This document shows, piece by piece, positions 1,780-29,969 of a stretch of DNA of 64,000 nt. The notes under the pieces were generated by a model, which searched no databases, was not told the origin of the DNA, and saw nothing but the letters and a program-made list of their open reading frames with translations. The stretch lies in NCBI GenBank assembly GCA_008632985.1, contig QPGO01000087.1, positions 62,001 through 126,000 of the forward strand, written 5' to 3'. Origin of the DNA: Psammoneis japonica. Taxonomy: Eukaryota. Made by a program: the position numbers and the translations under genes. Every line of letters starts with the position of its first letter. Within the stretch, counting starts at the first letter, position 1.

Positions 1780-2307
1780 GCAACATTGTTTTCTGACATC
1801 GAGTTTGGAAGAGGATCGACAAGATGATCCATTCAATTAGAATATAGTATTCTAAAGTTCGGAATACATTCAGAGCTGGGCATAAGTCATCCGTGAAATT
1901 CAAGGGTTTCGATTGGATTGAACTTTTTTGCGAAGGACCAAACGAGAGTTTGTGACGAGGACTGCTACGGAACTTTCTCTCTTTACGTAGTATTTTTAAA
2001 AGTAAAATTCTTTTTTGGCATTAGAATGGTGAACTTTCAGAGAAACGGAGTCTATCGCAGTGCTTTTCTTGGCCGTGATGTGGGATGACATGGATTCGTT
2101 CCCTCCTGCTCACATTTTTTGTGAGCATGGTTTTTGAAATTTTGATGACGTCATACCTGCCCAAGTTGAATGGGCGTATGGTACCCATATTGTACTTCAC
2201 AACTACGTATGTAGAAGCGTACCACGAATGTCCTATGTACGTCATTTTGAGAAGGTTTGGGATTAGCTCTTTTCAATCGGCACTTTCTGCTTTCTGCGAC
2301 CTCGACC

Positions 2308-4942
2308 ATGGCAGGTTCCCAATCGACGGCGCAATCTCCGACCGCAATTGGAGGCGATGATGATCGTGTGACAAAGAAACTCAAAATCTCTAACGATAGA
2401 TTCAGCGACGACAGCACTGCAGAGAAGTCTCTACCGCCTGGATTTGTCTCATGTCAGAAACTCTTGCTATCCAAACCTTCCAACACCGGCTCGTCTCTTT
2501 TGCCAGAGTCGCTCCTCCAGTCTAGTCAAACAAAAAACAATTTGGGTCGCCTCAAAGCGTTGTTTGATGCACATGGCTTTCGTACGGCTGTGATTCAGTC
2601 CCCACGTGCCGCGCTCTCGGTCTACAAAGACTCTTGCCGTGATGACAGCGCCGCTGATGATGGAAAACGGTTTATTCTAACAATGTTGGGTATGCACCCG
2701 GATCAAACAGACATGGAACAATGGTATGCGTCATCAATCAAGAGTGTACACTGCTTGTTACTCTTTTGCCGACGAATCCGGGCCCTTTGTCCAAAGGCTG
2801 CGACAACGGATGAGGTAAAGAACTTGTTGGAGACCAATGTAGCTCTGTGCGGTGAAATCGCTCCGAGTTCCGATTCCTCGTCGAGAATCATGGAGAAAGC
2901 TCAAAGCTTGGCAGCTTCACTTTCAAAACGTGTTGCGCAATTAAATTCTTCGATTGTCAAGGCTGATCCTCGACTTCGTATTGAACAATTGGAACACGAA
3001 TTCGAACGTCTGTCTCTCTGGAATTCTACATTGGCTAATGCTACACTTCAACTCTTTCTGGATAGAAACGATTGTTGCATTCAAAACATTTATTTCAAAC
3101 GGAGCCATATGAGCAAATACGAACGCATCACGATATATTTGTACGATCCCGAGGTTGATTTGCTCAAGCCGCCACGGTTCACATTTTTACCGTCCTTGCG
3201 ACGAGCGTTGGAAGACGGGGCTGAAGCCGTTGCCGAGGACATGGTCAACTCGTTCTGGCAGAATCTGTTGCGCCATGGATATTTTGCAACGAGTAGAATC
3301 AAGGCAGACTTAACTCCGCATCTGACCCAGTATTTCCTTTCGGGTATTGCGTCGGATCCTACTATTCCGCTTTTGCTGTGAGTTGTTGTTTGCTCGAGTG
3401 TTATTCTTTCGCATCTTTCTGCTGCCATTTCCTCTCGGCGTTGACATTTGTTTCTTTTTTATTTTTCTGCAACAGCAGTTCACACTTTACGCCGACCTAT
3501 CCCTTGTCGTTTTACCTCTTTGGGCGTGCTGGTGTTGGGAAGAGCTCCTTGGTGCGACACTTTTCACCAGCGCTCAATCGCAGCATTGAGCAGCACGTTG
3601 ACCCGGAACTCATGGTTCGCTTTGTCAAGCAAAATCTCAACAAACCAATGAAAGACCTGAGGTTGGAACTCGAGCTGCGACCAAACAATAATGATTTGAG
3701 TGTCATGAGTATAATTCAAGGCCGTCGAATGACCATGACGCAAACCAAGCCAGGATTGGTAGTTATCGATATGGAAGAGATGTCGAGTAACGCTGCAAAT
3801 GCCAATCCGAATCAACTTGAGACAGCACAGTTGCTCAGTCAACGCTTTTCTGGGCGAAATAGTGACTACAAGGATGGAAACGCTGCCGCCCCGAGGAATT
3901 CTACGAAACGAGGTATGTCTTTACAGGAGTGAATCTCCCGGACCCAACAGTGGCTTGGCTGACGCTTCCGTCGCTTTCTGTTGTTAAAGGTATAAGTGGC
4001 GATGCTTCTCTCATTGTGCTCTTCACATCCAACTACGACCTTGAAGCTCCCTGTCAAGATGCTTTGAAACGACTCAAAATGTTCGCCAACTTACAAGTTG
4101 TTCATATGACGGCTGTCGAAGGCGACGATCGCCGAGACTTTGCTCATTCCTATATAATACAGTGCGTTCAGGATCGATTTCCTGGCATGACTAAATCTTG
4201 TGATATTGATCTTGCAATTCCATTTGGGCAGGGAGACACGAGACCGTTGGTACGACATTTGAGAATGCTTGCCTTTTACGTTTATGCCTTGGTTCGTACC
4301 GATACGTCGGGGTCCAGAATCGAAGCCAAAGCAGTCCAACGGGATGATGAAAGTCATCTGTGCACTGTCAGTACGAAAGAAAAGTCCATTGAACTGCGGG
4401 TGGGAACCATGGATAATCTTTTTCCGGTGACGCATCAGGTGTTTGATGACCGTACGGAAAAGGCCATGGACGAGATCCGAAAGAGGAGCTCATGTTCTCC
4501 GCAGATGCTGGATGAGTTGTCCCAAATTATTGATTTTTGGTTTGCAAAGACACTTGCGCCAGCTGTTGTTCTATCCAAAGACGCGTCTCTTATTTCTACG
4601 CTCGTTGAAGCAGTGAGCCACCAGCATGATGTGCACTCCATCCAAGGAGTACAAGCCGGAAGTTACAAGATGATGAAGAGTTTGTATGATCCAACGGATA
4701 CTCCTAACCTAAGAGACGACATTCTAAGTCTCGGAAGAGGGGCGTTTGTGGCAATAGAATTGCAGTGTCCTTCGATTGACGCCCAGTTGTGCGTTAGGGA
4801 GATCATTGAAGACAGTCCATCCATGACCGCTTTCTCGACTCAGAAGTCGGCGTTGTACAAAACAGGGTTGATCTTCTTCGTTCACATCGGAGGTGAGCTG
4901 GTTACGCCAGAGGTAGAAAGTCGAGCTTCGTTGATATTGTAA
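2308..4942 (+). CDS. Uncharacterised P-loop/AAA+ ATPase-domain protein; introns 3378-3475 and 3913-3989
   Basis: Three ORFs join in frame through GT-AG introns. Walker A GRAGVGKS, Walker B-like LVVIDMEE and sensor-1-like LFTSNY. Confidence 0.7.
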
Positions 4943-5075: not shown

Positions 5076-7399
5076 CTATATTATGAGATTTCCTACTTTT
5101 TCCTTTTGGATGAGCGCCAATTTTTTTGGCTTGTGCACACCGTTAAAGGCTTCGGTTCCATCCTTTCCAGCGACATCTGTGATAAGGCTTGATCCGCCTG
5201 GGTGACTTGCGGCGAAGTTTGTCACGTCGAAGACTTCTCCGTGGAAAGCTACCCAACAATCTTCAGGATCGTTGTGCTGCTCCAATTCCTCCAAAGTCAC
5301 AACACGTTCGTCAACACCAGTCTCGTCTGCTGTACCTGATTCGACTAGAGTCCCTATTCTCTCGTCATCAAAATCGCCAAGCATGTTGGTGTTGTGGACC
5401 GCGCTAAACGCCTCCGTGCCATCCTTCCCGGCAAGGTCATGGATTGACTTTGCGCCAGCAGGGTGCTCTTCAGCAAAGTCAGTAAAGTCGTACACGACGC
5501 CATTTACCGCTACCCAACAGTCATCTGGAGTGTTGTGCTTGGACAACTCTTCCGTCGTCACCTGTGGGAGTGCTTTCGTTTCTTTCTTCACGTTCCTTGT
5601 TGCAGCAGGTGAAAGAGCTTGCGCAACAGATCGAGTCTTTATTGGGATCTTTTTACCGACAATTGTTCCGTAGACGGTGCATTCGAGAAGAGAATTGCCA
5701 CCGAGTCTGTTGTTTCCGTGAACGCCACCAGCAACCTCTCCAGCAGCGTGAAGACCGGGAATCACATTCCGATCTTCGTCCAGAACATTTCCTTCATTAT
5801 CTATCGTAATACCGCCCATGCAGTAGTGAAGTACAGGCGTAACCTTGCCTGCGTAGAAGATTTCATTTTCCAAATCATCCTTCGGAACGCCACGGAAAAA
5901 CTCTTTGCCCCACTGGTCACTTCCTTTCTTGGCGTCCGTCTGGTACTGCACCAGAGACTTTCGTACCGTCTCGACTTCCAAACCCATCCATGACGCAAGT
6001 TCCGGGAGCCCTTCGATTCTCGTCAGAAGACCCTTGTGAGTGTACAAGTCCACATGCTTTCTCCCCGCATCAGCAGCAGTAGAAGCCAAGACTAGAGAGA
6101 ATGTTGGAATCTCATCAGCTACATCCCATTTCCCAACCTCGGCAAAGTGAGGGGCGTGCGAAAGCATCTTATTGGTTACATAGGCTCTGGTTCCAAGTTC
6201 GTTACAAAATCTGAGGATAATCGTGGCAGTCAATAATTAGGGCGGCATCCTTTCAACACGCAGCAGTTGCTATCCAATGATCTACTTACCGGTTGCCATC
6301 CTTGTTCAACAAAATGCCGCCGACACCACGCATTAGCTCCGCAGCGAGAATCTTGCTTGGGTTTGAAGGGTCCGACGGATCTATCCATCCTGTTGGATGA
6401 ATTTGAACCTTGTCCATGTCTGTGGTACCAGCGCCAAGCTCGGTGGCAAGAGTTATTCCATCCCCTGTTGAGAAATCTCCGGCCGTTGCAGGCATGGTCA
6501 TGAATTCAGGACGATGCTTTGACAAGTAGGAGCCGCTGGATCGGTCAGACGCAAAGCCTCCCGTAGCAAGAACAACGTTGGGTGTTCTTATTTCTGTTGT
6601 GGTACCTTCATCATCCAATGTACTTGCGTATTCAACCCCAACAACTGCGCCGTTCTCGTCCTTGAGCAACTGTGTGACACGCGAGTCAACAAGAATTTTC
6701 ACCTTTCCCTCTTTCTCATAGGCGCGAACAGCCTTTTGCATTCCATAAATAATTTCTGCACCAACCATGCCGTTGTTCGGTCGATGTGTTCGTTTGTGTG
6801 AGTGACCGCCCAGTTGCGCCAAGAGGGACAGGTCGACACCAACACGATCTTTCAACCAGTTGACTGCATCTGCGCTGTTGCGCACTAGGGTGTCAATCAG
6901 AATAGGCTGTGCCGCTTCCCCAGCAGACTTAGTGGTGTCCCGACGAAAGGTTTCCAACGCATCCCCATATGTGTCATTGTGTGGACAACACGCGTTAATA
7001 CCGGAAGAAGCCTTATTCGAGTTACCACCGAGGCGATGTTCCTTTTCAATGACAACGACTCTTCCACCGCGATCGAGAATGTTTAGAGTTGCCGCTAATC
7101 CCGCAAGTCCACTGCCCACCACCACCGCATCTGGTTCGTCGTCCACTACCTCTCCTAGCTCACCAATCGACGCTGACATTCTCAAAAACTTTTCCGAGTC
7201 CGTGCCGTAGTACTTGGCCAAGACAAGAAGGTCGGCGTCCCTCGCCAAGGCTAGTCGCACAAGTTCTGCTTCTCTCTCGGGACTGATGTAGCCCCCACTC
7301 GCCAAAGACGCTGCCAATCCCACTGTAACATCCACAAGATTTGTTGAAGAGTCTGAATTCGGCGATGGCAACTCGTCACGTCCCTTGCTGCCCAAAAGA
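5076..7399 (-). CDS. Soluble FAD-dependent fumarate reductase (Osm1/flavocytochrome c type) followed by two cytochrome b5 domains; intron 6211-6289
   Basis: VVVGSGLAG, GGNSNKASSGIN, GGHSHKRTH, VLATGGF, VQIHPTG, RFCNELGTR (across the intron), HYCMGG, AAGEVAGGVHGNNRLGGNSL. Two b5 repeats with DCWVA..G.V.D plus HPAG and HPGG heme motifs. Confidence 0.9.
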
Positions 7400-8939
7400 G
7401 GTTGGTTAAATCTCGAACCTCCTTGATGGACTCAGAAAACTTCGCAACGGTATTGATAAAGGCAACAATCTCGTTCCGTTCTAGCGACGTCGGAATCAAA
7501 TCTGTCCGTGTAAAAAGAATCTTAAGTGCCGTGCCATATCCCAGCATTGCCATTTTGCCGTGCAGTTTGCACTGTTGACACTGGACGCAATCCAGAATCG
7601 AGCTGATATTGTGAAAAACACCCTTGAAATTCTCTTGCAGCGAAACGGCATCATCACCTTCGTCGGGTTGAAACATGAGTGACTCATCAAAAGCTGAAAA
7701 GACTTCATGACAAGAGCGCAGAATCGTAGAGTCCAACAGCCGCTTCAACAAAATGGTGGCAGTCTCGTCTTCGACAATGTTTCCGGTTCGGATTTCATAA
7801 TTGTGCAAAAAGGTGGATGCCTTTTGCAAGGCCCGTAAGAGGACAACATAGCTAAAGTGTAGGTTTCGAATATGCTCCGGATTGCTTTCAAACTTTTCCA
7901 TAAAGTATTGCGGGTTGGGTTCCCAATCTTTTCGATTCTTTCGTTTCGACGGTGCATAATAATTCTTGGCAATCGACAGAGTCGTGGACGAGTGCAGCCC
8001 CGACAGTAGCCTGTAAAGGACTCGTTCTTCAAAACACATGGGTGCTGACGCCGATCCATCCACCGAAATACAATTCTCTTCATAAATGGCCTTCCAAATG
8101 TGCGTCCCGTTGTATCCCGTATTGCGTTCGGGATTGAGTGCTAAATTCACCAGCTTGACACCCTCGCCCGTTTTGATGTTGGAGCACATGTCCAACCAAA
8201 AATTATCCGATAAACCTCCATCACAATCATCCTCTTTGTTTGGCATAACCACAATGGGATCGGTCGATTTGGACCAAGAAAAAGTGTTTCGCTGTTCATC
8301 GTCTTCCCAACTCGTGAGTTTGGCAATGGAGCGGAGCGCTGAGGAAATCAAATCACGAATGGGCGTCGTTGGAACAAAATCGTCCTCTTTTAAATTACAA
8401 AGCGGTTCTGCATCCTCATCCATTTCATCCTTGTCTCCACCGTCGCATTCAAAGTCATCGTCGTCGTCTTCGTAATCGTCTTCAGGAATTGAGGCTTCTT
8501 CTGGAGGCGGTGCGCTCATGGCCGAGCTCGTGGCTGATGACGAAGAGAACATTCCTTGGTCCGTATCTTGAACGCTACAGGCAGGCTCCGCATCTGGATC
8601 CAGATCTGGTAAGCCACTCGATGCACACTGTGTCTCTTCTTCGTCGTCGTGGTCGTCCTCTTCAGGCGGTTCTGGAGTCTCTGTTTCATGTTTCACTTTT
8701 CCCCGTTTTCTCCACTCCACCAAGGGACATTTGTGATCCAGATCTACAGCAAAAGACCGGAAAAAGGCTGTCTGCTTTAATTCTTGCAATATCGAGTGTA
8801 GCTGTGAGTCATTGGCTTCTTCCAGCTGTTCGACATTGCAGCTGGCGTCTTGAATCGGGCCACTGGGTGTCGGGAACAATGGCACTTCTTGCGCGACAAC
8901 GGACGCCGACAAGAGCAGCAACAGGGCTGTTCGTTTCAT
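7400..8939 (-). CDS. ERO1: ER oxidoreductin 1 (ERO1) domain with signal peptide; probably the N-terminal part of a fusion with the downstream fumarate reductase
   Basis: Signal peptide MKRTALLLLLSASVVA, FFRSFAVDL..KCP, NPERNTGYNG, CFEERVLYRLLSGLHSS and the C-terminal CxxCxxC motif DCVQCQQCKLHGK. Confidence 0.9.
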
Positions 8940-9704: not shown

Positions 9705-10300
9705 CATGTGGTGACATGTCAATGCAGGTGATGTGCTCCAGGTGATTCAATGAATGAGACGCAAAAGTGCCCACTGAGCAAGCGAGATGGCAAAGCCTCT
9801 TTGCCAGCAACCATTCAGGCTGCATGACAGCCTCTCATCTGTTCATGGAGCTTGCACTTTGGGCAGGATGCATGAAATGGTGAGATGCCTGCATGTCTTC
9901 CTGACACAGCAAGTGCAAGAAGAGATCTGAGCAGCTGAAAGCTCCCACTGACAGTGAAGTCAAAAGAGGTCAAAGGTTCCAAATTCAAAAAGAGATTTTC
10001 TGTCTGACTTGGCAATCAGGGATCTCAGAGGAGTTGTCATGACCTGGGAATGAGGAGGATCGAAGAACTCTGATTCGATCTCTGTTGAACAAAGAACATT
10101 GAAGTCACTGGCTGGCAAGGACGAGGATGTCACATGTGGCAACATGTCAACGCAGGCAATGCACTCCAGGTGATTCAATGAATGAGACATGCAAGTGCCC
10201 ACTGAGCAAGTGAGATGACAAAAAGGCTTGCCAGCAACCATCAGGCAGCATGACGCATCTCATCTGTCTGTTTGTGGAGCTCGCACTTTGGGCGGGACAC
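9705..10300 (+). repeat. Diverged direct repeat of about 165 bp (about 9705-9870 and 10133-10300)
   Basis: Shared core ctccaggtgattcaatgaatgagac...aagtgcccactgagcaag...gcactttgggc. Confidence 0.8.
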
Positions 10301-10423
10301 ATGACACAGCTGATCCTTCTGTTTGAGGGTCATTTGCAAAAAACATGTTCACAAGCTCTGGAGACAAGAACCTCAGCTGCCACCTGTCTCCTCACTTTCT
10401 TTTGTACAAGACAAACAGCAGCT

Positions 10424-12074
10424 TGGCAGGTTGGCTGGTCAATTGCACCAAAAACACCCAATGATGACATTTTAAGGATTGGCTCCTGTCACCCTCACCA
10501 GCAGGACCACCAGCACATTAAGACCTCCAGGTCACTGTCCACGAAAGACACTGTGTGGGATGATGCAAACACAAATGCACAAAATGATTTAAGTCTGCCA
10601 GTGTGATGCTCTGCTGAACACACTGAAATCCATCTTCATTCACAGACCCTTCCACCACCGCTGCAAATCACCGTGTTGTCGACAAGAACGAACTTTGCGT
10701 TGCCACCGCTGAATGCACAATGAGAGCCAAATGTTCTGATGCCACAGATTGACAGATGTCACTGTGAATTGACTGTGTCTGATGCCAGAAGCTTTGGTTG
10801 GTTGCAATCCGAATGACATTGAACCAAAGAAAAACACACCGGCTCCAACAACAATGCCAATGCAACGCCAAACCAACATGAACAAGTGCAAACAGAAAGA
10901 AACAGAATGAACGTGCATTCATGTGTTTTACACAGCAATTGCAACAACACGCTCACACCTTTTTTGCAATGCTGCTGCTCTTTGTTCTTTCAGAAGCCAA
11001 AGAGAAAATGACATCCGGAAGAGCTGCAGTGTCCTTTGGGAGCAGTTGAAACAAAGTGAGAAAAGAAACAGAATGAATGAGTGTTCCCACATTTCACGCA
11101 GCAATTCCAACAACACACTTGCACCTTTTTCCCCCAATGATGCTTCTCTTTGTCCTTCCAAAGTTTCAAAGAGAAAAAAAAAACCATTGCTGTCCACACA
11201 AGCTGTTGTGTCCTTTGGGAGCAGATGCAGAAAAGAAACAGAATGAATGAGCATTCACATGTTTCGTGCATCAATTCTAATGACACGCTCACACCTTTTT
11301 TGCCAACACTGCTGCTGTTTGTTCTTCCAAAGCTTCAAAGAGAAGCAAAGCCATCGACTTGGAGATCCCAAACCATGAATGCCACAGCCAACAGAGTGAG
11401 CTGTAAGACCACGCCGGAGCATCTCCATGTCCCATGAATGATGCCATTCCATGTTGAGTCAGCAACTTCATTTTTTGAATTGAGCTCGTACAGTTGTCAT
11501 TTTCATCAGCCATCCAACAACACACTTTGTTGGATCAATGAAGACAGCACCTTCAATTGCCAATGCTGCAACATCATGTGCAGAGATGGTCTGAAAAACA
11601 ACATGAACGGCCTTTGGCAAGAGATGTGGACACAGAAATGTGCAGCGGCCTTAAAATGACACTTGCCAAGTGAATGTTCTCTCACAATCATTCTGCACAT
11701 GCTGCTTTTACCTTGTGCTGCTTTTGGTTCATTGCCACTTTCATGATGCAATGAGCGATGAGCGATGAGCGAGATTTGTTGGATCATTTGCTTGTCTGCC
11801 TGCAGTGCTGCACGTAGAAACCACACTGGCTTCACCCAAGTGATGTCATGGTGATCTCACAATGATCTCACACTGCTGCAAAAAAGGACAACAAACATCC
11901 GCATCACTGAAGGTGGTGCAAATCCATTTGAAAGTTCAGGTCAGGTCTCCTCAACAAGATGATCTCAAATCCGGTCTCAAATGGATTTGCACCACCTTTG
12001 GTCATGAAGTTAAATGTGTGTGCACCCATCTCTAAAAATGTCGCATTTGGTGCAATTGACCAGCCAACCTGCCA
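10424..12074. mobile_element. Putative non-autonomous DNA transposon of about 1.65 kb with terminal inverted repeats
   Basis: tggcaggttggctggtcaattgcaccaaa at 10424 is the reverse complement of tttggtgcaattgaccagccaacctgcca ending at 12074. No recognisable transposase. Confidence 0.65.
10891..11345 (+). repeat. Tandem repeat of about 170 bp, roughly 2.7 copies
   Basis: Recurring aaagaaacagaatgaa...caccttttt...gtgtcctttgggagcag. Confidence 0.8.
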
Positions 12075-13247
12075 CTTTTCCCACAGTGAAAGTGGCTCAT
12101 TTTGACTCACACATGTTGACTCACCAATCTCAAAGAGAGTTGTCCTCCCCACTCTTCACATGATCTTGGCTGTTGAGGTCATCAAAGCAATGGTTTCTTT
12201 GTGTGACTTGGCAGCAATCGTGTGTGCTGGTGGCAGCTTCTACAGTTTTGACTTGGTGCACCCATCATCAGGATCTTGCTTTTTTTGTCTGACCTGCAGC
12301 CACATGACAGCTTGTTTTTGGCGTGCAGCACCACATCTGCTCCTTGGCTCTGCAAAGCATGCCACATGTCCAATGCAAGAATCTTGCCTGCCAGAGAGCA
12401 AAACACAGAAACAAGAGGACAGCAGGCTTTCATCATTTTTGTCGCAGTGACAGTGAAGCCATTTGTTTCTGCTTGCTCAGGCAGAAAAGAGCTCTCAAAC
12501 AAATGACTGCACTTGTTCCCACCATGTTGAAGGGCAGGGTTGTGGCACTGGACAATTGGAAAAGAGGAGAGGATCGCTGGAGTTTGCCCCCACAATCTTG
12601 ACCTGTTTTGTGTGAGGCTGGACCCACACTCAAGAGCACTTGAAAGATCTCATTTTGGTCCCAGCCCACAGAGGCAGCCACTGTCACATCAGTGCAGCAG
12701 CAAATGAGAATGATGGGGATGAGCAATGATCCTTCACAACATCTGATGAATCAGAGGAAAGTTGGATGAAGGATCGGTGTTGGCTGCTGAGCTTGGAAAA
12801 AGAAAGGGTTGCTCCAGTCTGTGTCAAGAGAGGGCTCTTGACCCTTTCTGGTTTCCATGATTTGTTCCTGAAAGCTCAAAATTGCAGAGTGGGTGGTGAT
12901 CTTGTTTCCGCCACCACAGAAGAGTTGCACATGGAACACTTCTTCAAATCTCCCCCCCCTGTCCTTTGCATGATGAGTCAGTGTTGGCTTTGAAGAACGT
13001 TGTTGCTCACCTTGCTTGTTCACCACACAGCAGCACTTGGTCAGGGGCAAACATCAAATGGCACAATGACAACATGCAGAATGCACTCGTGTTGAGCATG
13101 AGACAAGCCAGTTGCAGCTGGCAAGGCAATTGAAGCTGGAGCCACTCTTTTTCATTGAGAGAATCCAGGCCACGAGTGACGATGGTGATTGCCCCTCTTT
13201 TTCATTCTATGATGACATTGCTTGTTTGTCACTTGAACAACTTCATC

Positions 13248-13531: not shown

Positions 13532-13956
13532 TCTCACCTCATTTGTTGTCTGTGCCGCTGTCATGTCACCATGACAATGGCAAAGGACTGAGACAATGAG
13601 AGTGTTGTTTTTACATTCTTTTATCATTTACGAGTCGCATTAAAAATGGGATTGATGCACACAGGGCTCAAAATTCGATTCAAAATTCAAAACATCACAT
13701 TACAACGGCGAGAAACAAAATAGTCGCGCTCTCTAGCTAGCGGTCACAGAAGCTCTAAGTATTATCAAGAAACGTTCGCACCAGTAATTAACGACTATGG
13801 AGCATAAAATATATTAGTGTCATTATAACTCCCAATCTAACCATCTCCAAATCGCCAACAACTCGCTTCGCCAAACAGCCAAACATCCACACCATACAGT
13901 GAGAACACCGAGAATCATCAATCATCACACTTTTTTGGTCGTAAACTTCATCAACA

Positions 13957-15219
13957 ATGGCTTTCGTTAAAGTCGTCGATGAAAATTATCCACCAGCTCC
14001 AGTGTTGCTGCTTTCGAAAAGCATAGATGTGATCTGCGGCAGCGCAAATTTTTTTCACTGCCAAAACTGGCGTGATTTGCTTCCGTCTCAGCTGTTGGAA
14101 GTCAGTGGACTGTCTTACAGAGTCGGCGATCTTTCAGAGACTTTTCCTGACACGCTCTCGTATGTGATTTTTTTGGAATCAACTGGTGCGGAGCACTCGC
14201 TCGGTAGCGTATGGAAATATGCCTTTGAGACGCCATCAACCGATTTATCGGTGGTTACAACCCCGCTCGCAATGATGGTGCTATTGTTTCTTGTGTTGCT
14301 ATTACGGGCAATTAAGGGTGTCCTTCTGCCTTACTTCTCGAGGCATGGTCGCCGAGTGGGTCGTGATACGCATGGATTGGATTGGGAGAAGAAAAACGAG
14401 GATCGCATCGTCAAGTTCGGTGAATACAGTTTTCGTCTCTTGTTCCACACGGTCATGAGTGTGGTTGGGATCTGGTATTTTTGGGACAAGGAGTGGTTGG
14501 ATGCGACCCGTGGAGGAACCAAGAACTTATTCGATAACTACCCGCTTGATAGCATTGATGTAGGGATGACTTGGTATTATTTGGTCCAATGTGCTTACAA
14601 TTTGGACGCACTTGTTTCACTCTTGGAACTTAGCTTTTCGGTCGAAAGGAAGTACCCTTTCAGTTCTGGTGGCACCTTTTCAAGTCCTGTGAGCATTGGT
14701 TGGTCCAAGACAGTTCGAGGGGACTTTCGAGAAATGGCGATTCATCATGTACTGACAAATCTATTGGTGATTGGTAGCTCTCACTTCCGTTTAACAAGGA
14801 TTGGATCATTGGTTTTTTTGGTTCATGATATCAGCGATGTATCTGTTGATCTTAGCAAACTTGCTAACTTCATGAAATGGATGAAATGCACCATTGTTGC
14901 ATTCACCAGCACCGTACTTTCATGGCTCACCCTTCGATTGGGCGTTTTCCCATTTGTTATCATCAAGTCGCTTTCCCGGGAAAGTTGGACTACGACAAAG
15001 AATTTTGACGCCAGCTGTTATCATTGTTACCTCCCATTTTTCCTTTGTTTCTGCCAGCTCCTAGCCTTTTTACATCTCTTTTGGTTCTTCACACTTCTGA
15101 AGATAGGTTGGCTCTTGTTGACCAAGGGCGAACGTCATGACTTGACTGAACATAAGAACGGGGAGACCACTCAAGATGCCGAACCACATTCTTTTGCCAA
15201 GAAGCAAGCGTCAAGCTAA
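13957..15219 (+). CDS. Ceramide synthase (LAG1/TLC family), copy 1
   Basis: KFGEYSFR, YYLVQCAY, Lag1 motif RGDFREMAIHH...RIGSLVFLVHDISD, and HLFWF. Confidence 0.9.
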   Translation: MAFVKVVDENYPPAPVLLLSKSIDVICGSANFFHCQNWRDLLPSQLLEVSGLSYRVGDLSETFPDTLSYVIFLESTGAEHSLGSVWKYAFETPSTDLSVVTTPLAMMVLLFLVLLLRAIKGVLLPYFSRHGRRVGRDTHGLDWEKKNEDRIVKFGEYSFRLLFHTVMSVVGIWYFWDKEWLDATRGGTKNLFDNYPLDSIDVGMTWYYLVQCAYNLDALVSLLELSFSVERKYPFSSGGTFSSPVSIGWSKTVRGDFREMAIHHVLTNLLVIGSSHFRLTRIGSLVFLVHDISDVSVDLSKLANFMKWMKCTIVAFTSTVLSWLTLRLGVFPFVIIKSLSRESWTTTKNFDASCYHCYLPFFLCFCQLLAFLHLFWFFTLLKIGWLLLTKGERHDLTEHKNGETTQDAEPHSFAKKQASS

Positions 15220-18200
15220 ATCGCAGGCACACATGATGCCTGTGCAATGCAGCGCATTTTGAGCAAGACTAATTGTGCCGACCGATTGCCAACAAGTCTT
15301 GGTTAAGATTACCTTTAGTTAAGAATGGAGATTAGAGAGTTTCAATTGTCGCTTAGAGCACTGGCAGCTTCAAAAGCTTTGAAGAATTGGCACACACCTA
15401 CTGCCACCACATCAGAGGGGGGGGGGGGGGGGGCAAATTAGCTGGTGCTCAATTGAATCATGCAGGTCAAACCTAGATTTTGCCTGCAGGTCGAACCTGC
15501 AGTGCAATGTGTGTCCCGGTTCATTTTAATTTGGGTTTGCCACATGCACCGGTGCGCTAAATTGACCATGCAGCCATGCCATTGTTCATGCAGCTGAGCA
15601 TGTCATTTCTGGTCTTCACATCACATGAATGGTTTTGATGCAACCCCGTTGTGCAGTGCACTCTTGTTTCATTTGTTGATTGCTGTTCGCACCCCTTTCC
15701 ACACTGGCAATTGGTTGTTTCTTGTCTCATCTTTCATTGTAAATCATTGCCAACAGCAGAGTGACCACACTGTCATCTGCAATGCTTCTGCACACCACAG
15801 CTGCTCTTCATTGATGTCACCATTGTCCTTCATTGTCATCTCATTGCCCACTGTGTCCATTGTGGCTCCCAGGCTGTCAAAGCATTCCCAGAATTCCTTG
15901 GACCACACTTCATTGAATTGCTCTGCACCCTTGCTCATTCTCTTCTTGTGTGCATGTCTTCTTCCCCAACTCTCAGCACCTGTTGAGTCCTTGTTTGTTC
16001 TAACCTTGGTTCCTTCTTGCTTGTTTTCCTTTTTCAGCACTGCACTTTGAGGCAGGAATGAGTCTCTTGTCCTGGAGCTCTTCCTTGGTTTCCCAATGGA
16101 TGTGTGCCCACCTGCCCCAATTGTTTTCTGATGCCAACAGACCAAATGCCTCTTCGCTTGCGAACACCAGCTTGCTCAAACAATGTCACATGGTCTTTCC
16201 AATGACGATGGGTGTGAAATGGTGGGTGCAGCATCTGCGAGCCTTCGTGCCATTCCTCCTCTCCAGCATTTCTTCCAAGGATGGCATCTGCTCCTTGTCA
16301 TGATCCAGCTGACCTGATTGTTCATGAGGTGCAACAAGGCAATGCAAGTTGGTGTTTTTTTTGTCAATGCTCTGCACTTCCTCTTGCAATGACATTTGCG
16401 GAAGAATTCCTTTTTTGGCTCTCCACAGGCATGGCTCCGCTTTTTTCTTTTTTTTGTCACACCTTGTCCTTTGGCATGTCCCACGTCCATGCCCTGTTGA
16501 CTTGTGGCATGTTGATCTCAGACAAAACAATCCTTGCCACCCTTTTCTTGTGGCCCCTTGCAGCCTTTTTGTTCAGAAACTTGTGCTGATGGAAAAGTGT
16601 GTTCTTGCTGCAGTTTTCCAAAACAATCTTGCCCCTGTCACCCACTCATGTTGTTGTTGAATCATTTTTTCTTTCATTTGTCACTCATTGCATTCAGCCC
16701 TTCATTTGCAATGGAGGTGGTGAGAGTCCTGTTTGTCACAACCCCTCCATTTGTTCCCTGGTGCTCTGCCATTGATGCGGGTGCATCTGTTTCTGTTTCT
16801 TGTGCTCTCCCTGTTGTGCCTGCTTGTTTCACAATCCACTGCACTGTCAGCTGGTTCAATTCAAGCAGTGTGAGCAGCTTGCACTTTGTTGCTTGCCTCT
16901 TTTCTCTCATTGGGCTTTGGGGTGGTTGGTTTTGCCATGCAGTTTGTCTTGGCAGCATGGCACTGTTTGCATTTTTTCTGGTTTCTGGAGAAGCAAGACT
17001 TTTGTTGTTCTGGGATGCATTGCAGTCACAGCACTGCCATGTGCTGCATTTGTTTGCAGATGCAACTGACAACCTTGCACTGGAACCTGCTGTCTTGTGT
17101 GTCCCTTCTGCAATTTTCAAATCTGTTGTGCATTGTGATTGGTCAATTGTTTTGAAACCAAAACACCAACACACATGCACACATGATGCAACATCCATTC
17201 AAACATGATGTCTGTCATTCATTTGCTCATGACTCCACCTTGCCACCGCATGTCACTGCACTCTTTTTCTGCACATGAGGCTGTGCAGTTTGTCCAACAT
17301 GTGGCAACAAATCATCTCCCAATTTGTTCCACTGGGCCTGCTGTTGCACACCTCTGGCTGGTGCATTCTTCTGTGGTGCACCACAATGTTGTCTTCCATT
17401 TTGTTGTCCAGGTTGGAGAGGCACCTGTCCAACTTTTGCCAGTCACATTGTCATGGTGTTGTGGCCATTTTGGTGATGGGGAATGTGCAACAGACAACCA
17501 TCCTTCTGTCACATTCAAGGAGCTTCCCATGGTGTTGGACAAAGCTGAGTTCAAGAAACATTTCAGAGTCATCTGCTTGCTTCTGTTGCATCTTTGCTCC
17601 ATTCTCACAAGAGCAGCACAACCATCATGGACAAATTCAACTAGGACAAAGCACCTGATTTAACATGTTTTTGGATGTCAACACTGACGTGCTCAGCCCA
17701 GACAATGCTGGTTCATCCATGGATTCATTGACACACTTTTCTTGCAAAATGACAGCACATCTCCTGCTCTTCATTGTTGTTGTGGGCTCTGCCTTGCAAC
17801 ATTCAATTGTCCACAGCAGCAGTCCTTTCCTCCCCTGATGCATCTGTTGTCAGGAAGTCACCATTGATCAACCCCCCAGAGTGCAACAAATCACTGTGGC
17901 AAAGGGAAGCTCTGAACAAGAACTGCCTGCACAAGAGGGGTGTTGGCAACCTTTTGCATCATGGATTGGACTGCAGTGTGCAATCATGCCAAAACAACAG
18001 AGTGCTGCAATGAAGCTTCCTTTTTTGTGGGACAGCTGCGTGCTGTTCATTCAAAGCAACCAAAAATGGGAAGTGGAAAAACCCATTGTCGTGGACAATG
18101 CAAAGTTGGACATGGTCCATGACACACAATTGGATGCATCCATCAACACTGGTTCAAGGGGGCTGCCATCAGCTTGTTGGGTGTGGATTGCTTGTCCTTG

Positions 18201-19277
18201 CATGACACTCAGCGGAGCTGTTGAAATTAACCAAGAAGAGTGTGGGTGGAACAGATGAAAAAAAAACTTTCTGCAAAAGGAAAGAAAGCAGACAAAAAGT
18301 CCAAGAAAAGCCAAGTCCATTTTGGGAACAGGAACAATCCAAGGTTGAGTGGTCTTGTTGTTCACACTCCCAGAAACATGGACATGCACAGGTTTTGCTC
18401 AGTGAAGCTGATCCAAAAGTGTTCAGAAAGCAAGGACAAGGACATGACAGAGTCCACCCATGTCATCATTGAGCATTTGGGTGAGTCAATGCCAACACCC
18501 TCTGCAAGATCTGGTGTTTGCATGTGAAGAGCTGACACAGAGTGGCAGAGGAAGTGGCAGAAAACCACCAGAAATCTTCGCAGAAGGGCAAAGGAGTTGC
18601 CAAATGGAGACCAAGCATTGTGCTCTGCTGTGGATGACATGCTGCACAGCACCCTCATGGTTGGAAGTGGCTGCAGGGGTGGGTTGCCGAAATTCATGTC
18701 AACAGCTGCATTGCTTCCATGCAATGGAGAGGTTTGGCAGACTTCTGTTGCAACCTCGCTGGTGACAATGCAAACATTGTCCTTCTTGTGTGTGTGTTCC
18801 AGTTGCAAGTGGCATGTTGCAACCCATCTAAATTTTGCAATGGGCAAAAACCACAAGTTCCTTTCATGCTGGATTGTTTTGTCATGGAGCAGCTCATGTG
18901 GGGACTTGCCCAACTCATTTGAATGACTTGTTCAACCGTGCAAGTGAAATGACAAAATTGCTTGTGCCAAAGCCAGAGTGGACATGTGAGTGTGACAATG
19001 ACAGTGGTTGTCTTTTCATTGCTTGGTGCACCAAGCAAAACTTGCCAATGGTGCATGCAGAACCTCTCATCTCTTTGTGGTGAAGATTGGAAATGGACCC
19101 AATGACCCAATGAGTGTTGGTTCAGACAAGGATTGGTTCAATCTTCATGAAAAGTTGGATGAGATGGAACCAATTCATGATTTTGGTGAGATGTCAAAAA
19201 TTGTGTAAACAGAAAAGAGATGATCCCAACAACAATGGAACAGTGCTGAAAAAAAAACAGATGCTGTCACCACAGCA

Positions 19278-19867
19278 GTTGGAATGCTTCGCCAGTTGCA
19301 AAACCAGAAGGGATCAAACTCTGCTGGGGTGGTGGATCCCTGAGCTTGGGACAAAAACACATTGTCGTTGTTGCCTGAGTCACTCGGCTCCATTTGGTGG
19401 TCATTTGTCTTGTCCTTGTCCTGTGCAGAGAGTGGGAAATCAATTTGTTCCACAGGGACAAGGCCACCATTGCTTGTTCTTTCATTGCAGCACAAAAAAT
19501 CAAGAGTGGGTCTGACCAGCATTCCATTGCCAGTGCTCCAGTCCTGCTCCCATGGTGGCAGCTGGCTGAGTTGGAATGCTGCCAGTTACAAAACTAGAAG
19601 GCATCAAACTCTGCTGGCAGTGGATCCCTGAGCTTGGGACAAAAACACATTGTCGTCATTGCCTGGGTCACTTGGCCCCATTTGGCGGTCATTTGTCTTG
19701 TCCTTGTCCTGTGCAGAGGGTGGGAAATCAATTGGTTCCATGGAGACAAGGCTGCCATTGCCTGTTCCTTCATTGCAGCACAAAAAATCAAGAGTGGGTC
19801 TGACCAGCATTCCATTGCCGGTGCTCCAGTCCCCAGTCCCCACTCCCATGGTGGCAGCTGGCTGACT
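19278..19867 (+). repeat. Tandem duplication of about 290 bp
   Basis: tggatccctgagcttgggacaaaaacacattgtcgt...cagcacaaaaaatcaagagtgggtctgaccagcattccattgcc...cccatggtggcagctggctga occurs twice in tandem. Confidence 0.9.
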
Positions 19868-22800
19868 TGGTTCTTCCAAAGCATTGTTCAACAAATGATG
19901 TGCTGGTGGCCCACACACACAATTTGGTTTTCTGGCATCATTCAGGGTGCCATTCAATGCCCTGGTGGATGAGATGACAATGTTCTTGTGACACTTCATT
20001 GAAGAGAGAACATCCTGAGCAGCACACTTTTGCTTCAAATGTGACAACAGAACCTTTGTGATGAAACGATTTTTGCAGACGAGAGTGTTTGTGTCATCAG
20101 CATTGTCTGCACCAGCCTGCTGGCCACTGTTTTCAGGTGCAGTGGGCACCTCAGCAAGGTTTTGCAGGTTGTCAATCAAATCATCACAGTGACCCGGGAA
20201 CACACCAGTGAGGAGAAACTTGACACAGATCAACTGTGTGAGTGCCTGTGGCACAGCACTGTTCATGACATGGCGCACAGTTCACCCAGCATTCTTGTCA
20301 CAGATGGTGGCACAGCTCTGGTCAAGGTCACACATTGGTGTTCAAGTGTGATGCAGGCAGACAGCAGCCACAAAAGACACAGGAAAAACTCCACCCACAA
20401 AGATGGAGCCAATCTTCCAAAGTGTGGCAGGTTTTGCAGAGACGGGCTGCATCACAACAACAAGCCACAGCTTTGTGTTCTTCATCCACAAATTTGACAC
20501 CAGTGTCACAAACAAGTTCAGAGGAGTGCACTGACCCATTGAAGACAGATCACAGAAGAAATGCTGTCACAAAGTTGGGAAAAGAACCTTCACAGAGGAG
20601 CAGCACCTCAACAACAACAACAATGTCACCTTCAACATCTGGATGGGCAGTGTGCACATGGCTGTGTTGGTTGAAGATGCTGTCCAGGGCAGCTGAAAAC
20701 AAGGCACTGCTGGCCTTTGGCAGGAGAATGTGATCAATTTGGGATCAAAAATGAGCTGCAAATGCGTTTCAACAGACAACACCATGGGGCCTGCCTTCTC
20801 CCAAAACTTTGCATGAATGGAAGGAGCGTTGCAACAACCAGTCTTCTTGTCTGTGAAAACACATTCCTCAGACATCATTGCAAAGGGAGACTCAGAGTTT
20901 ACACCAGCATCAAGGAGTGATTGGAAATTCATGGTGTTCCCTGTCTCTTGTTTTGATGGAAAACCAAGAAAAAAGAAGGGCTTGACCAACCTTTGAGCTC
21001 CCCACTGTTTTCACAAGGTTGGACTCCAAATTGTTCATTTTGCTGACATGAGGACACGTTTTTCTGAGCTTTCTGGAGAGATGCTGTCATGGTGCTGGCG
21101 GCAGTGATTTTTCCCCCTTGTTGGCATTGCACTTGCTTGGCAAAAGGTTGCAGAGCTTTTCCTGTTGGTTTCTGCACAGGCCATGCATCCACCAGTGAAA
21201 CAACAACAGCCACATTTTGCAATCCTTGTGGGACAAGTTGTTTGGGTCAAGAGCGTGCATTTTGCTTGGATGCTTCTAGCAACTCAGCATCCTTGAAGGA
21301 AGGAACTTTGTCACAATGCATGAGAAATTTGAGACATTTGGGTGGAAGAATGGCCAGAGAGAATGCAAGCAATCTGCCACATTGGCAGCAGTGGCAGCTT
21401 TGTTGTTGATGGAGGCAGCAGTGACAGCAGCTGCTGGGTTGTTGGCAGGTGCTGTGGTGGCAGTGGCTGGTTGTTGGCAAGGGCTGATCCTGAGTGGCTG
21501 CATGAGAGGCCAAGCTTGAGAGGCAAAGTTTGAGATTGGCCACCCTTGCCTTTGCCACCATGGCCATGACCACCGGCATTGGAATGGTTGGCACCACAAC
21601 TGCCTGCATCTCCATGAGAGTTCTTGTCCTTGCAGCACACCATTGTGATGATGCACCAAAAAGCAAATTTGGTTGTGAGGGCATCAACTGGTTGGGAAGA
21701 TTGAAAAGATGGCACCTGAAGTCCCAGAACAATTGAAAGAAGATGGAGCAAGCCAGCATGACTATGAAAATTTCCATCTCAACAAGAACACATTGATGTG
21801 ACAAAAAATGAGACATTGACCTGCTGCGGACACAAATGCAATGAATCTCACTCAAGCAGTCCTTCACACACAGCTGTGAATTGCATGACATCTTGTGAAT
21901 CAAAAATGTTAAATTGGTGCAAAACCTCAACAACTTGACAATTCATTCAAGTCATTTCAAATTGTTCAAACCTTCAAAAGTGAGTGTGAACATGGAATTT
22001 TGAAACAAAAATGCCATTTGCAAAGCAACACAGACAGCAATCACCAGGCAGACATGCTCAACATTGCCACAAAAAGAAATCACCATTGCCTCACAAGACA
22101 CAAAATACAACACACAGGACTCATCCAACATCTTGACAACAATGACAGTGTGGGAAGGCAGTGGCAGAGCAGAGTGCAGGCACAATCCGAGGAAGAAAAT
22201 GTGGGCACAAGGTGAGAGAGAGAGGAAGTTGCAAACTGTTGACTCTCCTGCCAATCTTTCCACTCAGACACATTGACATGCAAGAGGAGCCAGAAGGGAA
22301 GAAGATGATGCTGGGATGCCACAAAAGTGAGCAGAAGCACCATGTGCACCAAGCTGATTAAAAAAAAGCACATGCAAAACTCTGATCTGTTGCACACTCT
22401 TTTCTCTTCTTGCAGCCAATGATTTGGCCACCCGAACATGACAAACAAAAGAGAGGTCACAATGTAGAGTGAATGGCGATCATGGAGAGCAGTTGTGAGG
22501 GACAACACCATGACTGCAACAGGATTCCATCATTGTGCAGACAGCCAAGGGCAATGGGAGCACTGGTGGAAGATGTGGCAAAATGATGGGGAAGAAAGAG
22601 CAGGAAACAGGAAGCAAAGAAAGCAGATTCAGTGCAGAAAAAATGAATTGCAACAGGTGCAAATCAAATTGCACATGTGCAGCACCACACAGCCAACACA
22701 CAAGCACATCAATGAGATGAATGAATGTTGTTGTTGTTGTCAGCAATGAGCAGTGTTGGAAATTTGTTGCAATTGTGCGGTTGTTCAGAAGAATCAATTG

Positions 22801-22999
22801 CAAGCCACAAGTTTTGTTCATTGTCATTTCCTGCTTTGCTGAGGATGACATTTGTTGCAAACAGAAATTGAGTCATGTCAAAACAATTCTTAATGTGCAC
22901 ACAGATTGTCTTGTCAAGATGACATGCATTGCAGGGCCAACTGACATTGAGCATCACCTCCTGCTTTGCTGATCACATCAATTGTGAGTGGCCCTGCAA

Positions 23000-24070
23000 T
23001 CGCAATGAATTGGCCCTTGCCAAGCAGACAGCATTTTGATCTGGTGCAGATGAATTCTGAGCAAGAGCAACAACATTTTTCAGACAAGAAAGCTGTTGAG
23101 GGTCTGGCAAAAGAGGGTGGGACAAGGTTGTGTGGGGCTGGGACAATGTGGGTGACAACACAACTGAGTGCAGAAGCCTCAAAGATTGAATGGGTGCATG
23201 ACACCATTGACAAGTCGGGATGACAGGCAGATGGCTGCACGCAAAGAACCACAAGGAAGATTGGCAAGCATGTCAGAAGAATGTTTGGCCCGGAGATGCA
23301 GCTGCTGGTGTCCCTGAGGCAGGAGAGCACACCAAAAGAGCCAGAGCATCCATCGGGAGACACTGCATTAGAGAAGGACAAGGCAATCTGGGGCAAGCAA
23401 TGTGATCACTGTGCAAAACATAGTGTGATCTACAAGATGCAGAAGGCAAAGGTGTTTGGTGAAAATGTGGGACAGTGCACAAACATGCCATTCATCACAA
23501 GGTTGAAGGAGTGACAGAGTTCACAAGAGTTGCAAAGGAGTGGAATGTGGTGGCACTGTTGGAAATTCTCAAAGACCTTGTTTGATGCAAATGAGAAGAT
23601 GTGCTGCTTGCATGTTCAGGTGGTCAAGGCTTGGAAGCGCTTGGTGCTCATTCATCAAGATGAAGGAGAGTGACTTCAAGATTGTTGTGATTGGTTCATT
23701 GGTGTTGTTGAGATGGTGGAAGGGTCCTGCGGCAGGATCATCCTGGAAGGAATTGCCAAGAAAGCAGACAGGTTCAGCTGGGATGCTGATGACACCCAGA
23801 AGAAAGAAAAGAACAAGTTGTCAGTGGTGTTGCCAATGGAAGGTGCCAAGGAATGTTGGCATGTCTTAAAAGGCCTGGATCAACAGTTTGCACTGGGGGC
23901 TGACAATTGCCCCAATTCAGCCAAGGAGGCATTGCAGGTGTTGAACATGCATGGTGCCAATGAGAAACCTGAGAGGGTGCAAGTTTTGCACAAAATGAGA
24001 AGAAGCAGATCAAATGCTGGAAATGTGGAAGGCTGGGCATGTGAAAAAGGATTGTGCTTTGCTCAATGAT
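23000..24070 (+). mobile_element. Degenerate Ty1/Copia (diatom CoDi-like) gag relic
   Basis: Fragments EKDKAIWGKQCDHC..KAKVFG..GQC and LDQQFALGADNCP.SAKEALQVL resemble diatom Copia gag (W.KQYD.Y; G.DNYP) with Tyr replaced by Cys. Recognised from memory, not from a search. Confidence 0.6.
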
Positions 24071-26560: not shown

Positions 26561-27328
26561 TTTGCCTGAGCTACTCTTACTGTATGGTTTCGCTTATTCT
26601 CGTACGGTACGGTATATTGTGAGATTGTTCTCACTATTATTTGTATACCATATAATGTTCAGCACTGGCTGTTTTGATGCTTTTTGTGCTTTTCGTCTGT
26701 ATTCTTTCGTTGCACTTTGTTGGCCCTATCTTTGAATTTGTCTATGAGGTTGTTGTCGTCCCGAAATCGTTTCGGCAAACGACGGCATCATTCTTCATCT
26801 AATTGTATGAGCGCGCAGAAAAGAGCCAAGCAAAACGGCCCCCACCAAAACTTAAATTCAATTTTTTATTATTTACTGAATAGAAGCTGAATATTTCAAA
26901 TGGTTATAGGCTTCTTGCTATTGAATGACTGAATAACTTTAAACGACGATAGTCAAAACAAAAAGATACACTAATAAATTTAATAGAGCATTGCAACAAA
27001 AAACGGCGGTAAAACTAGTGGTCGTGCCGAAAAACTAGAAATAAGTATATACGTACTTATGATTTTAGTTTCCATTTGTATGAGCGATTATGAACAAAGA
27101 TAGTATACTCAAGTATAAAGAATAAATAAGCTCAACGTACATTAGGAGGATCAATAATTGTCTAATTTTTTGAACTACTACGTAAGGGCGGCCCTTCCGA
27201 GAACCCTACAGTCAGTATGTACCGGTACTGTAGGCCTACCGGTAGATAATAAAAAATTGGAAAAATACGAGAACAATAATTTTCTTCTTGTAACTGTATG
27301 GGGTAGGGCCCACTAAACTTCATCAACA

Positions 27329-29571: not shown

Positions 29572-29969
29572 GATGACGTTCCTACAGCCCAGCAACAAGA
29601 CGACGACGAAGCTCTTGACCGAAAGAAAAAGACAACAACACCAGTGATGGTTGGATGTACAATACACGAGTACAACGGCAGAAGAGAGAAGCAATAGCCA
29701 ATGCAAATACGGTAGCAAAAATAATAAAAAAAGCAAAAAAATGCGCGGTGTGCGGTGTGGCGCGGTATAATCAAATAATACAATGCTGGAGGAGTCGTCG
29801 TCGACCGCGGACCCGCGCTTTTTTGGTCGCACTTCCTTTCAGCACAGCACACAAGGGGGCAAATCTAGAGCCTACGATGTGTCGAAATGTGTGGCGTGGC
29901 GCGGACGTCAGATTTATTGAGTGGCTTGTTCTCGAAGATAATCGATGTTCAAAACAAAATAAATTCAAT

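What the first reader, a model, noticed from the sequence alone, without database searches (positions are those of the whole stretch)
5076..8939. Probable ERO1 + fumarate reductase + two cytochrome b5 fusion: a self-contained anaerobic disulfide-forming enzyme
Seen: a signal peptide and a complete ERO1 domain run directly into a helical linker, an Osm1-type fumarate reductase and two heme b5 domains. The two frames overlap at about 7251-7430, with no intergenic space or intron and a single-base offset near ctcttttgggcag. Known: Ero1 normally passes electrons to O2, and in yeast the soluble fumarate reductase Osm1 reoxidises flavin for Ero1 under anaerobiosis. Inference: the fusion relays electrons from PDI through ERO1-FAD (possibly via b5 heme) to fumarate in the ER lumen, allowing oxidative folding without O2 or H2O2. 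This would suit benthic or dark-anoxic growth.
Basis: partly seen in the sequence, partly recalled or inferred. Interest (0 to 1): 0.82.

Follow-up and report, generated by a model that had tools for sequence, protein, structure and literature searches.

The report
ERO1-fumarate reductase-haem b5 fusion enzyme
A diatom gene joins, in one secretory-pathway protein, a disulfide-forming ERO1-type enzyme, a fumarate reductase and two small haem domains; many marine protists share the design, which probably lets them make protein disulfide bonds by passing electrons to fumarate instead of oxygen.

Summary
Real, intact minus-strand gene. The one-base offset is an assembly error: two contig sets from one sample (possibly this DNA's source) carry an extra base behind 7389, one as a single spliced 3839-nt piece spanning all modules. 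With the 79-nt intron removed the frame gives 1261 residues: signal peptide, ERO1-type domain, helical linker, Osm1-type fumarate reductase, two cytochrome b5 domains. 156 of 411 fetched proteins have ERO1>reductase>b5 in this order, from diatoms, dinoflagellates, Chromera, a labyrinthulomycete, diplonemids and an Ostreococcus cluster; only 10 have two b5. The benthic reading is not supported. All six reductase catalytic residues and both haem ligands are conserved. Fused ERO1s form their own branch (100/100) and lack the canonical CX4C shuttle, carrying wider cysteine pairs instead. Likeliest mechanism (inferred, untested): thiol to ERO1-FAD to b5 haem to reductase-FAD to fumarate in the ER, a one-chain version of yeast Ero1+Osm1, with a haem that could bridge the >20 A gap left open there. 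Ten literature searches showed no paper on it. The scan found this fusion before in three other diatom genomes.

The parts
6290..8939 (-). exon 1 (ATG at 8939); window lacks one base between 7390 and 7389
8892..8939 (-). probable signal peptide, aa 1-16 (cleavage site judged by eye)
   Evidence: hydrophobic stretch; 77 of 88 assessable homologues also have an N-terminal hydrophobic region
7416..8804 (-). ERO1-type domain, aa 46-508
   Evidence: Pfam PF04137 E 2.5e-86; human Ero1alpha 3ahr E 1.5e-43, yeast 3m31 E 8.5e-37
8577..8627 (-). first CX15C pair (C105-C121) in an acidic loop; candidate shuttle or regulatory pair
   Evidence: Cys in 96 and 98 of 120 homologues
8397..8447 (-). second CX15C pair (C165-C181); candidate shuttle pair
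   Evidence: Cys in 120 of 120 homologues at both positions
7569..7589 (-). CxxCxxC inner active site (C451, C454, C457), followed by His460 where most unfused ERO1 have Trp
   Evidence: 120 of 120; H in 66 of 67 fused-side rows, W in 36 and H in 11 of 49 unfused rows
7389..7390 (.). site of the missing base (assembly error) that breaks the frame in the window
   Evidence: extra C behind 7389 in contigs of runs X1 and X2
7147..7338 (-). conserved four-helix linker, about aa 535-598, no Pfam family
   Evidence: helices 531-599 in the P0024 model; no family
5637..7128 (-). Osm1-type soluble fumarate reductase domain, about aa 605-1075, interrupted by the intron; H848, E868, R871, R892, H1012, R1052 match Osm1 H281, E301, R304, R326, H435, R477
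   Evidence: homologue model vs 5glg Z 52.2, rmsd 1.7 over 455 residues
6211..6289 (-). 79-nt GT..AG intron
   Evidence: skipped by the X2 contig; ends; 13 of 24 b5-less homologue models end within three residues of this position
5076..6210 (-). exon 2, stop TAG at 5078-5076; no ER-retention tetrapeptide
5343..5564 (-). cytochrome b5 domain 1 (H1133, H1156)
5079..5300 (-). cytochrome b5 domain 2 (H1220, H1243); 39 of 77 aligned positions identical to domain 1

Best explanation
One soluble ER-lumen protein that works as a disulfide-generating dehydrogenase. Shown: single reading frame and transcript-like contig, domain order, conserved catalytic and haem-ligand residues, wide distribution. Inferred: (1) a thiol partner, most likely PDI, reduces one of the wide CXnC loop pairs; (2) electrons pass to the CxxCxxC site and ERO1-bound FAD; (3) the tethered b5 haem, a one-electron carrier, takes them from the ERO1 FAD to the reductase FAD in two steps, doing the job of the haem domain of Shewanella Fcc3 (a second b5, as here, could hold both electrons); (4) fumarate is reduced to succinate. 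Disulfides would then form without O2 and without H2O2. Because many carriers are plankton of oxygenated water, it may run in air as well as in anoxia. It requires fumarate entry into, and succinate exit from, the ER, for which no carrier is identified here.
For: Single gene. Order ERO1>FRD>b5 in 156 of 156 three-module proteins. Six Osm1/Fcc3 catalytic residues in 81-84 of 84 aligned fusions, both b5 His in 82 of 84, CxxCxxC in 84 of 84. ERO1 and reductase trees of 59 fusions are broadly congruent (patristic Spearman 0.83, pairs not independent), so the modules have been kept together for a long time. [quoted passage not shown] Yeast Ero1p reduces cytochrome b5 anaerobically in vitro, though b5 was said not to be in the ER (review PMC2672033; primary paper not held). 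The aromatic residues of Osm1's free-flavin pocket (W295, F297, F362) are mostly replaced in the fusions, which fits a different electron entry route. Secretory targeting: hydrophobic N-region in 77 of 88 assessable homologues, no internal hydrophobic segment in 118 of 120; 4 of 156 end in xDEL.
Against: No activity, localisation or expression-level data. The CX4C shuttle that oxidises PDI in canonical Ero1 (PMC3800646) is absent: 0 of 31 parsed fused-side rows vs 21 of 26 parsed unfused rows. FRD-b5 without ERO1 is common in fungi, so the b5 may serve the reductase with another donor. Some fused-type ERO1s seem to have lost the reductase (Corethron P0133/P0299; two Pavlovales proteins with linker only), so coupling to fumarate is not obligatory for this ERO1 type. 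Full-length AlphaFold2 models have pTM 0.59 and 0.62 and the cysteine loops are low-confidence: no fixed domain geometry was established. Part of the Osm1 flavin pocket is kept (K76 74 of 84, S78 84 of 84, L298 83, Y363 83). Whether the same genomes also hold a canonical ERO1 could not be checked (no genome held).
Confidence: 0.55

Rival explanations
1. ERO1 and the reductase are coupled to fumarate, but the haem is bypassed: electrons go FAD to FAD directly, through free flavin, or between two molecules, as proposed for yeast; b5 is an inherited accessory of the FRD-b5 module.
For: Yeast Osm1 has no haem and still couples to Ero1 (PMC6242907). K76, S78, L298 and Y363 of the flavin pocket are kept. 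FRD-b5 exists without ERO1 in fungi.
Against: Both haem ligands kept in 82 of 84; pocket aromatics mostly lost; b5 duplicated with ligands intact in 10 of 156.
Confidence: 0.2
2. The fusion only co-targets two enzymes to the ER: ERO1 stays an ordinary O2-consuming oxidase and FRD-b5 is a separate lumenal electron sink for flavins or other reductants.
For: Fused-type ERO1s without reductase appear to exist; many carriers live in oxygenated water; linker and loops are long.
Against: Fixed order, a conserved helical linker and a separate ERO1 branch with its own diagnostic residues suggest the ERO1 domain was remodelled with the fusion; yeast precedent for real coupling.
Confidence: 0.14
3. The relay exists but its ends differ: the donor is not PDI (the wide CXnC loops act on another thiol protein or are only regulatory), or the acceptor is an enoate other than fumarate.
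For: CX4C absent; urocanate reductase is structurally close (Z 46.1).
Against: All six fumarate-site residues match Osm1/Fcc3; Osm1 is the best sequence and structure match; yeast Ero1 without the shuttle pair keeps some activity by other cysteines (PMC3308690).
Confidence: 0.1
4. Two separate genes, or a frameshifted pseudogene, in this organism.
For: The window shows a one-base offset; the runs are one sample and may be the source of the assembly; X2 is not on record as RNA.
Against: Both covering contigs carry the missing base; one is spliced and spans 9029-5114 in one record; complete single-ORF homologues come from transcriptome sets.
Confidence: 0.01

Closest known systems
Yeast Ero1p plus Osm1 (Kim et al. 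2018, PMC6242907; PDB 5glg)
   Same: ERO1-type thiol oxidase and Osm1-type soluble fumarate reductase in the secretory pathway; six catalytic residues identical; homologue model vs 5glg Z 52.2.
   Different: Two weakly binding proteins without haem in yeast; here one chain with a helical linker and one or two b5 haem domains, no CX4C shuttle, and the flavin-pocket aromatics mostly replaced.
Fungal FRD-cytochrome b5 proteins (Atlas clusters named 'fumarate reductase (NADH)' and 'Osmotic growth protein')
   Same: FAD_binding_2 followed by Cyt-b5.
   Different: No ERO1 domain in those clusters.
Shewanella flavocytochrome c3 (Fcc3)
   Same: Soluble fumarate reductase fed by tethered haems; same active site.
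   Different: N-terminal tetrahaem c domain in a periplasmic bacterial enzyme; here C-terminal b5 haem(s), with ERO1 at the N-terminus.
Canonical Ero1 (yeast Ero1p, human Ero1alpha, plant ERO1)
   Same: Full Pfam ERO1 match, CxxCxxC, N-terminal signal.
   Different: CX4C shuttle replaced by CX11-40C pairs, doubled in most diatoms; Trp three residues after CxxCxxC replaced by His; separate branch at 100/100.
Yeast Erv1 plus Osm1 (PMC5638582) and bacterial DsbB-menaquinone-fumarate reductase
   Same: Same logic: disulfide electrons end on fumarate.
   Different: Different oxidase, compartment and carriers; not fused.

Membership tests
Canonical Ero1 | ERO1 domain over its full length | tested here: met
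   PF04137 positions 1-354 of 354, E 2.5e-86; PDB Ero1 matches
Canonical Ero1 | Inner CxxC (within CxxCxxC) next to FAD | tested here: met
   C451/C454/C457, 120 of 120 homologues
Canonical Ero1 | CX4C shuttle pair (PMC3800646) | tested here: not met
   Window has two CX15C pairs; CX4C in 0 of 31 parsed fused-side rows vs 21 of 26 parsed unfused rows. Filed as an ERO1-type subfamily, not as canonical Ero1.
Canonical Ero1 | FAD-contact residues (W283, H316, ERxTGY; role recalled from Ero1 structures, not from a call) | tested here: met
   W 120 of 120, H 119 of 120, T 120 of 120; aligned to 3ahr
Canonical Ero1 | ER lumen localisation | tested here: inconclusive
   Only a crude hydrophobicity test and xDEL ends in 4 of 156 relatives
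Canonical Ero1 | Oxidises PDI with O2 as acceptor | not testable with these tools
   needs enzyme assay
Osm1/Fcc3 soluble fumarate reductases | Six catalytic residues H281, E301, R304, R326, H435, R477 (PMC6242907) | tested here: met
   All six in the window protein; 81-84 of 84 fusions
Osm1/Fcc3 soluble fumarate reductases | Flavin plus clamp domain fold | tested here: met
   Homologue P0024 model vs 5glg Z 52.2, rmsd 1.7, 455 residues; Foldseek E 5.4e-38
Osm1/Fcc3 soluble fumarate reductases | Fumarate reduction activity | not testable with these tools
   needs assay
Osm1 (yeast) specifically | Second, free-flavin pocket (K76, S78, P162, W295, F297, L298, N359, F362, Y363) | tested here: inconclusive
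   K76, S78, L298, Y363 kept; W295, F297, F362, P162 mostly replaced, N359 is His in 81 of 84
Flavocytochrome c3 | N-terminal tetrahaem c domain | tested here: not met
   Fcc3 matches start at about chain residue 119-130; the N-terminus is ERO1
Cytochrome b5-like haem domain | PF00173 match with two axial His | tested here: met
   Two stretches, E 1.6e-48; H1133/H1156 and H1220/H1243

The most novel reading that the evidence does not exclude
An old, separate branch of ERO1 in marine protists is not an oxidase but a fumarate-linked disulfide dehydrogenase with a built-in haem wire, and it is the main route of oxidative folding in diatoms, dinoflagellates and other carriers even in air. Their ER would then be coupled to carbon metabolism through an unknown fumarate/succinate carrier and would make little H2O2.
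Probability: 0.3. Interest if true: 0.88.

Novelty: new variant of a known kind. Interest (0 to 1): 0.7.

Why it matters
How eukaryotes form disulfides without oxygen is an open question outside yeast (no such system identified in Arabidopsis, PMC9516139), and in yeast the route across the >20 A gap between the two flavins is unresolved (PMC6242907). A natural single-chain version with a haem domain makes both questions testable with one purified protein and a few point mutants. It points to fumarate use in the ER lumen of major phytoplankton groups, defines an ERO1 subfamily with a different shuttle, and could serve as an O2-independent, peroxide-free folding catalyst for protein production.

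Tried and rejected
Programmed frameshift or short intron at the junction: rejected, both covering contigs carry the missing base. No RNA holder listed for the stretch; X2 is read as cDNA only because its contig skips the intron exactly and ends near the gene ends; X3 laid nothing. Complex prediction of ERO1 (aa 20-412) with FRD-b5 (aa 488-1048) of homologue P0154: no verdict (score 0.07, mark 0.34, alignments not used); not used either way. Full-length models gave no coordinates, so FAD-haem distances could not be measured. In one search the Fcc3 alignments reach back to model residue 181 (second cysteine loop) against Fcc3 residue 73 of the haem domain, but only a few residues are added: a weak hint, not relied on. 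P0375 (ERO1+linker+b5, no reductase) looked like support for ERO1-to-b5 transfer, but it is a singleton (1 of 28 hits; its close relatives are full fusions) and lacks the loop cysteines: not used. P0182 is labelled Batrachochytrium but groups with Chromera/labyrinthulomycete-side rows: label distrusted, fungi not counted among carriers. Whether a canonical ERO1 coexists in this genome could not be tested. Literature: searches (0 papers; 10; 19 of 20 listed; 5; 18 of 19 listed; 6; 15 of 18 listed; 2; 1), 84 (1); no title or abstract start described the fusion; most were seen as listings only, subscription journals are not covered and no supplements were read. PMC10407231 passages held nothing on diatom fumarate reductase.
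Full report
Observation. The gene lies on the minus strand. Three frames carry it: 8939-7251 (ERO1, Pfam PF04137 over the whole profile, E 2.5e-86), 7431-6289 (linker and first part of FAD_binding_2) and 6236-5079 (rest of FAD_binding_2 and two Cyt-b5 domains). Fused homologues aligned to the window change frame at about 7390 and at 6289/6212. The second change is a 79-nt GT..AG intron. The first is an assembly error: of three runs laid, the two that cover the gene both have one extra C behind 7389. X1 is an 11.6-kb contig with the intron; X2 is a single 3839-nt record spanning 9029-5114 that skips 6211-6289 exactly. The three runs are one sample and one study, may be the source of this DNA, and X2 is not on record as RNA, so they correct the assembly but are not independent support; I infer that X2 is cDNA. 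With a placeholder base and the intron removed the frame is 3786 nt, 1261 aa, without internal stop.

Distribution. A search among proteins of 985-2810 aa gave 316 hits among 7999 scored candidates; all 120 listed carry ERO1 and FAD_binding_2, and the named ones are diatoms (Cyclotella, Skeletonema, Thalassiosira, Mediolabrus, Stephanodiscus and others), several from transcriptome sets marked complete. Of these 120, 86 have one b5, 10 two and 24 none; 13 of the 24 end within three residues of the intron position and are probably truncated models. Among the 150 best representatives at 50% identity, 47 have ERO1 plus reductase (27 with b5 too), 5 ERO1 plus linker only, 98 ERO1 only. Thirty were looked up by name and 18 proteins checked by Pfam: full fusions in Chromera velia, Diplonema, Namystynia, Aplanochytrium, two Amoebophrya strains and a cluster that holds an Ostreococcus lucimarinus partial model; Perkinsus with a partial reductase. 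Later searches added full fusions in Polarella and Effrenium and partial ERO1+reductase proteins in Emiliania, Triparma and Hanusia, plus a Chrysochromulina fragment that NCBI names 'ero1-like protein precursor fumarate reductase'. Over all 411 fetched proteins (a redundant set), 156 have all three modules, always in the order ERO1>FRD>b5; 146 have one b5 and 10 two. The window groups with diatoms. A benthic adaptation is not supported.

A separate ERO1 branch. Of 161 candidate rows, 116 had a complete ERO1 core; FastTree splits them into a side of 67 (53 with reductase or linker, 14 ERO1-only, many probably fragments) and a side of 49 with no fusion, support 1.0. IQ-TREE on 56 hand-picked rows (25 fused, 31 unfused; P0351 and the ERO1-only rows of the fused side left out) gives the same split at 100/100, bootstrap not fully settled. 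The trees are unrooted and the sample is what resembles the query, so one origin is compatible, not proven. ERO1 and reductase distances across 59 fusions correlate (Spearman 0.83, pairs not independent). The fused side lacks the CX4C shuttle that defines canonical Ero1 (PMC3800646, passages): 0 of 31 parsed rows against 21 of 26 parsed unfused rows; the six CX4C strings among 145 full fusions lie at another cysteine site. Instead there is a wide CXnC pair (n about 11-40), doubled in most diatoms: C165/C181 are invariant in 120 of 120, C105/C121 present in 96 and 98 of 120. His replaces Trp three residues after CxxCxxC in 66 of 67 fused-side rows, though 11 of 49 unfused rows also have His. 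Against obligate coupling, a Corethron protein and two Pavlovales proteins of the fused type end before the reductase.

Reductase and haems. Osm1 is the best solved match by sequence and by fold (homologue P0024 model, pLDDT 81.9, pTM 0.59; Z 52.2, rmsd 1.7 over 455 residues). The six residues shown by mutation to be needed in Osm1 (PMC6242907) are all present in the window and in 81-84 of 84 aligned fusions; both b5 histidines in 82 of 84. Of the nine residues of Osm1's free-flavin pocket, K76, S78, L298 and Y363 are kept while W295, F297, F362 and P162 are mostly replaced and N359 is His. A crude hydrophobicity test finds an N-terminal region in 77 of 88 assessable homologues (32 of 120 not assessable) and no internal segment in 118 of 120; four relatives end in xDEL. 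The protein is therefore most likely soluble in the ER lumen; carriers without complex plastids argue against a plastid-import role (inference).

Mechanism. In yeast, Ero1 plus Osm1 plus fumarate oxidised thiols without oxygen; binding was weak (Kd 150-200 uM), Ero1 was proposed to dock where Fcc3 has its haem domain, and the two FADs were >20 A apart, too far for direct transfer (PMC6242907, parts 1-4 of 6 read). A review states that Ero1p reduces cytochrome b5 anaerobically in vitro but that such metalloproteins are not in the ER (PMC2672033, passages; the primary paper was not held). The fusion removes the weak binding and brings a b5 into the lumen. I therefore favour thiol > loop CXnC > CxxCxxC > ERO1-FAD > b5 haem > reductase-FAD > fumarate (0.55); coupling to fumarate by any route about 0.75. 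Every step is inferred. FRD-b5 without ERO1 is common in fungi, so the haem may belong to the reductase alone, and the models do not fix the domain geometry (pTM 0.59 and 0.62). Osm1 was reported to act in air as well as without it (PMC5638582, passages), and many carriers are plankton, so avoiding H2O2 is as plausible a benefit as surviving anoxia. How fumarate reaches the lumen is unexplained.

Novelty. The pathway logic is known from yeast; the single-chain, haem-bearing form and the altered ERO1 were not described in any title or abstract start returned by ten full-text searches; subscription journals and supplements were not seen, and automatic annotations already list the domains together. 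The scan reported the same fusion in three other diatom genomes and a reductase-b5-Erv fusion in two marine protists (the latter not tested here). Verdict: real, intact, a new variant of a known kind, interest 0.7.

Noticed in passing
window about 10001-13000, 16001-24000, 30001-32000, 58001-60000: Non-coding stretches with very low CpG (observed/expected down to 0.10) and TpA (down to 0.02), against about 1.0 and 0.5 in genes.
   Followed up: no
window 13945-15219 and 27317-28579 (+): Two near-identical TLC-domain (ceramide synthase-like) genes 13 kb apart; a ceramidase-like ORF (by eye) follows the second at 28780-29838 (-).
   Followed up: partly
window 2251-4942 (+): Convergent downstream neighbour in three long frames with no Pfam family except a weak P-loop/AAA match in 3297-3932; unexplained.
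   Followed up: partly
window 5368: Single-letter difference in run X1 only, in the end of b5 domain 1; possibly the other allele.
   Followed up: no
P0375: Singleton dinoflagellate-like protein with ERO1, linker and b5 but no reductase and no loop cysteine pair.
   Followed up: yes
P0133/P0299, P0152, P0380, P0172/P0386: Fused-type ERO1 proteins that end before the reductase (Corethron; Pavlovales with linker kept; two larger unnamed clusters): candidate secondary losses.
   Followed up: partly
P0182 (KAH9253608.1): Fusion labelled Batrachochytrium salamandrivorans groups with Chromera/labyrinthulomycete-side rows; probably a mislabelled or contaminant record.
   Followed up: partly
window 7338-7147 (-): The four-helix linker is conserved across supergroups and has no Pfam family; it was not folded or searched alone.
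   Followed up: partly
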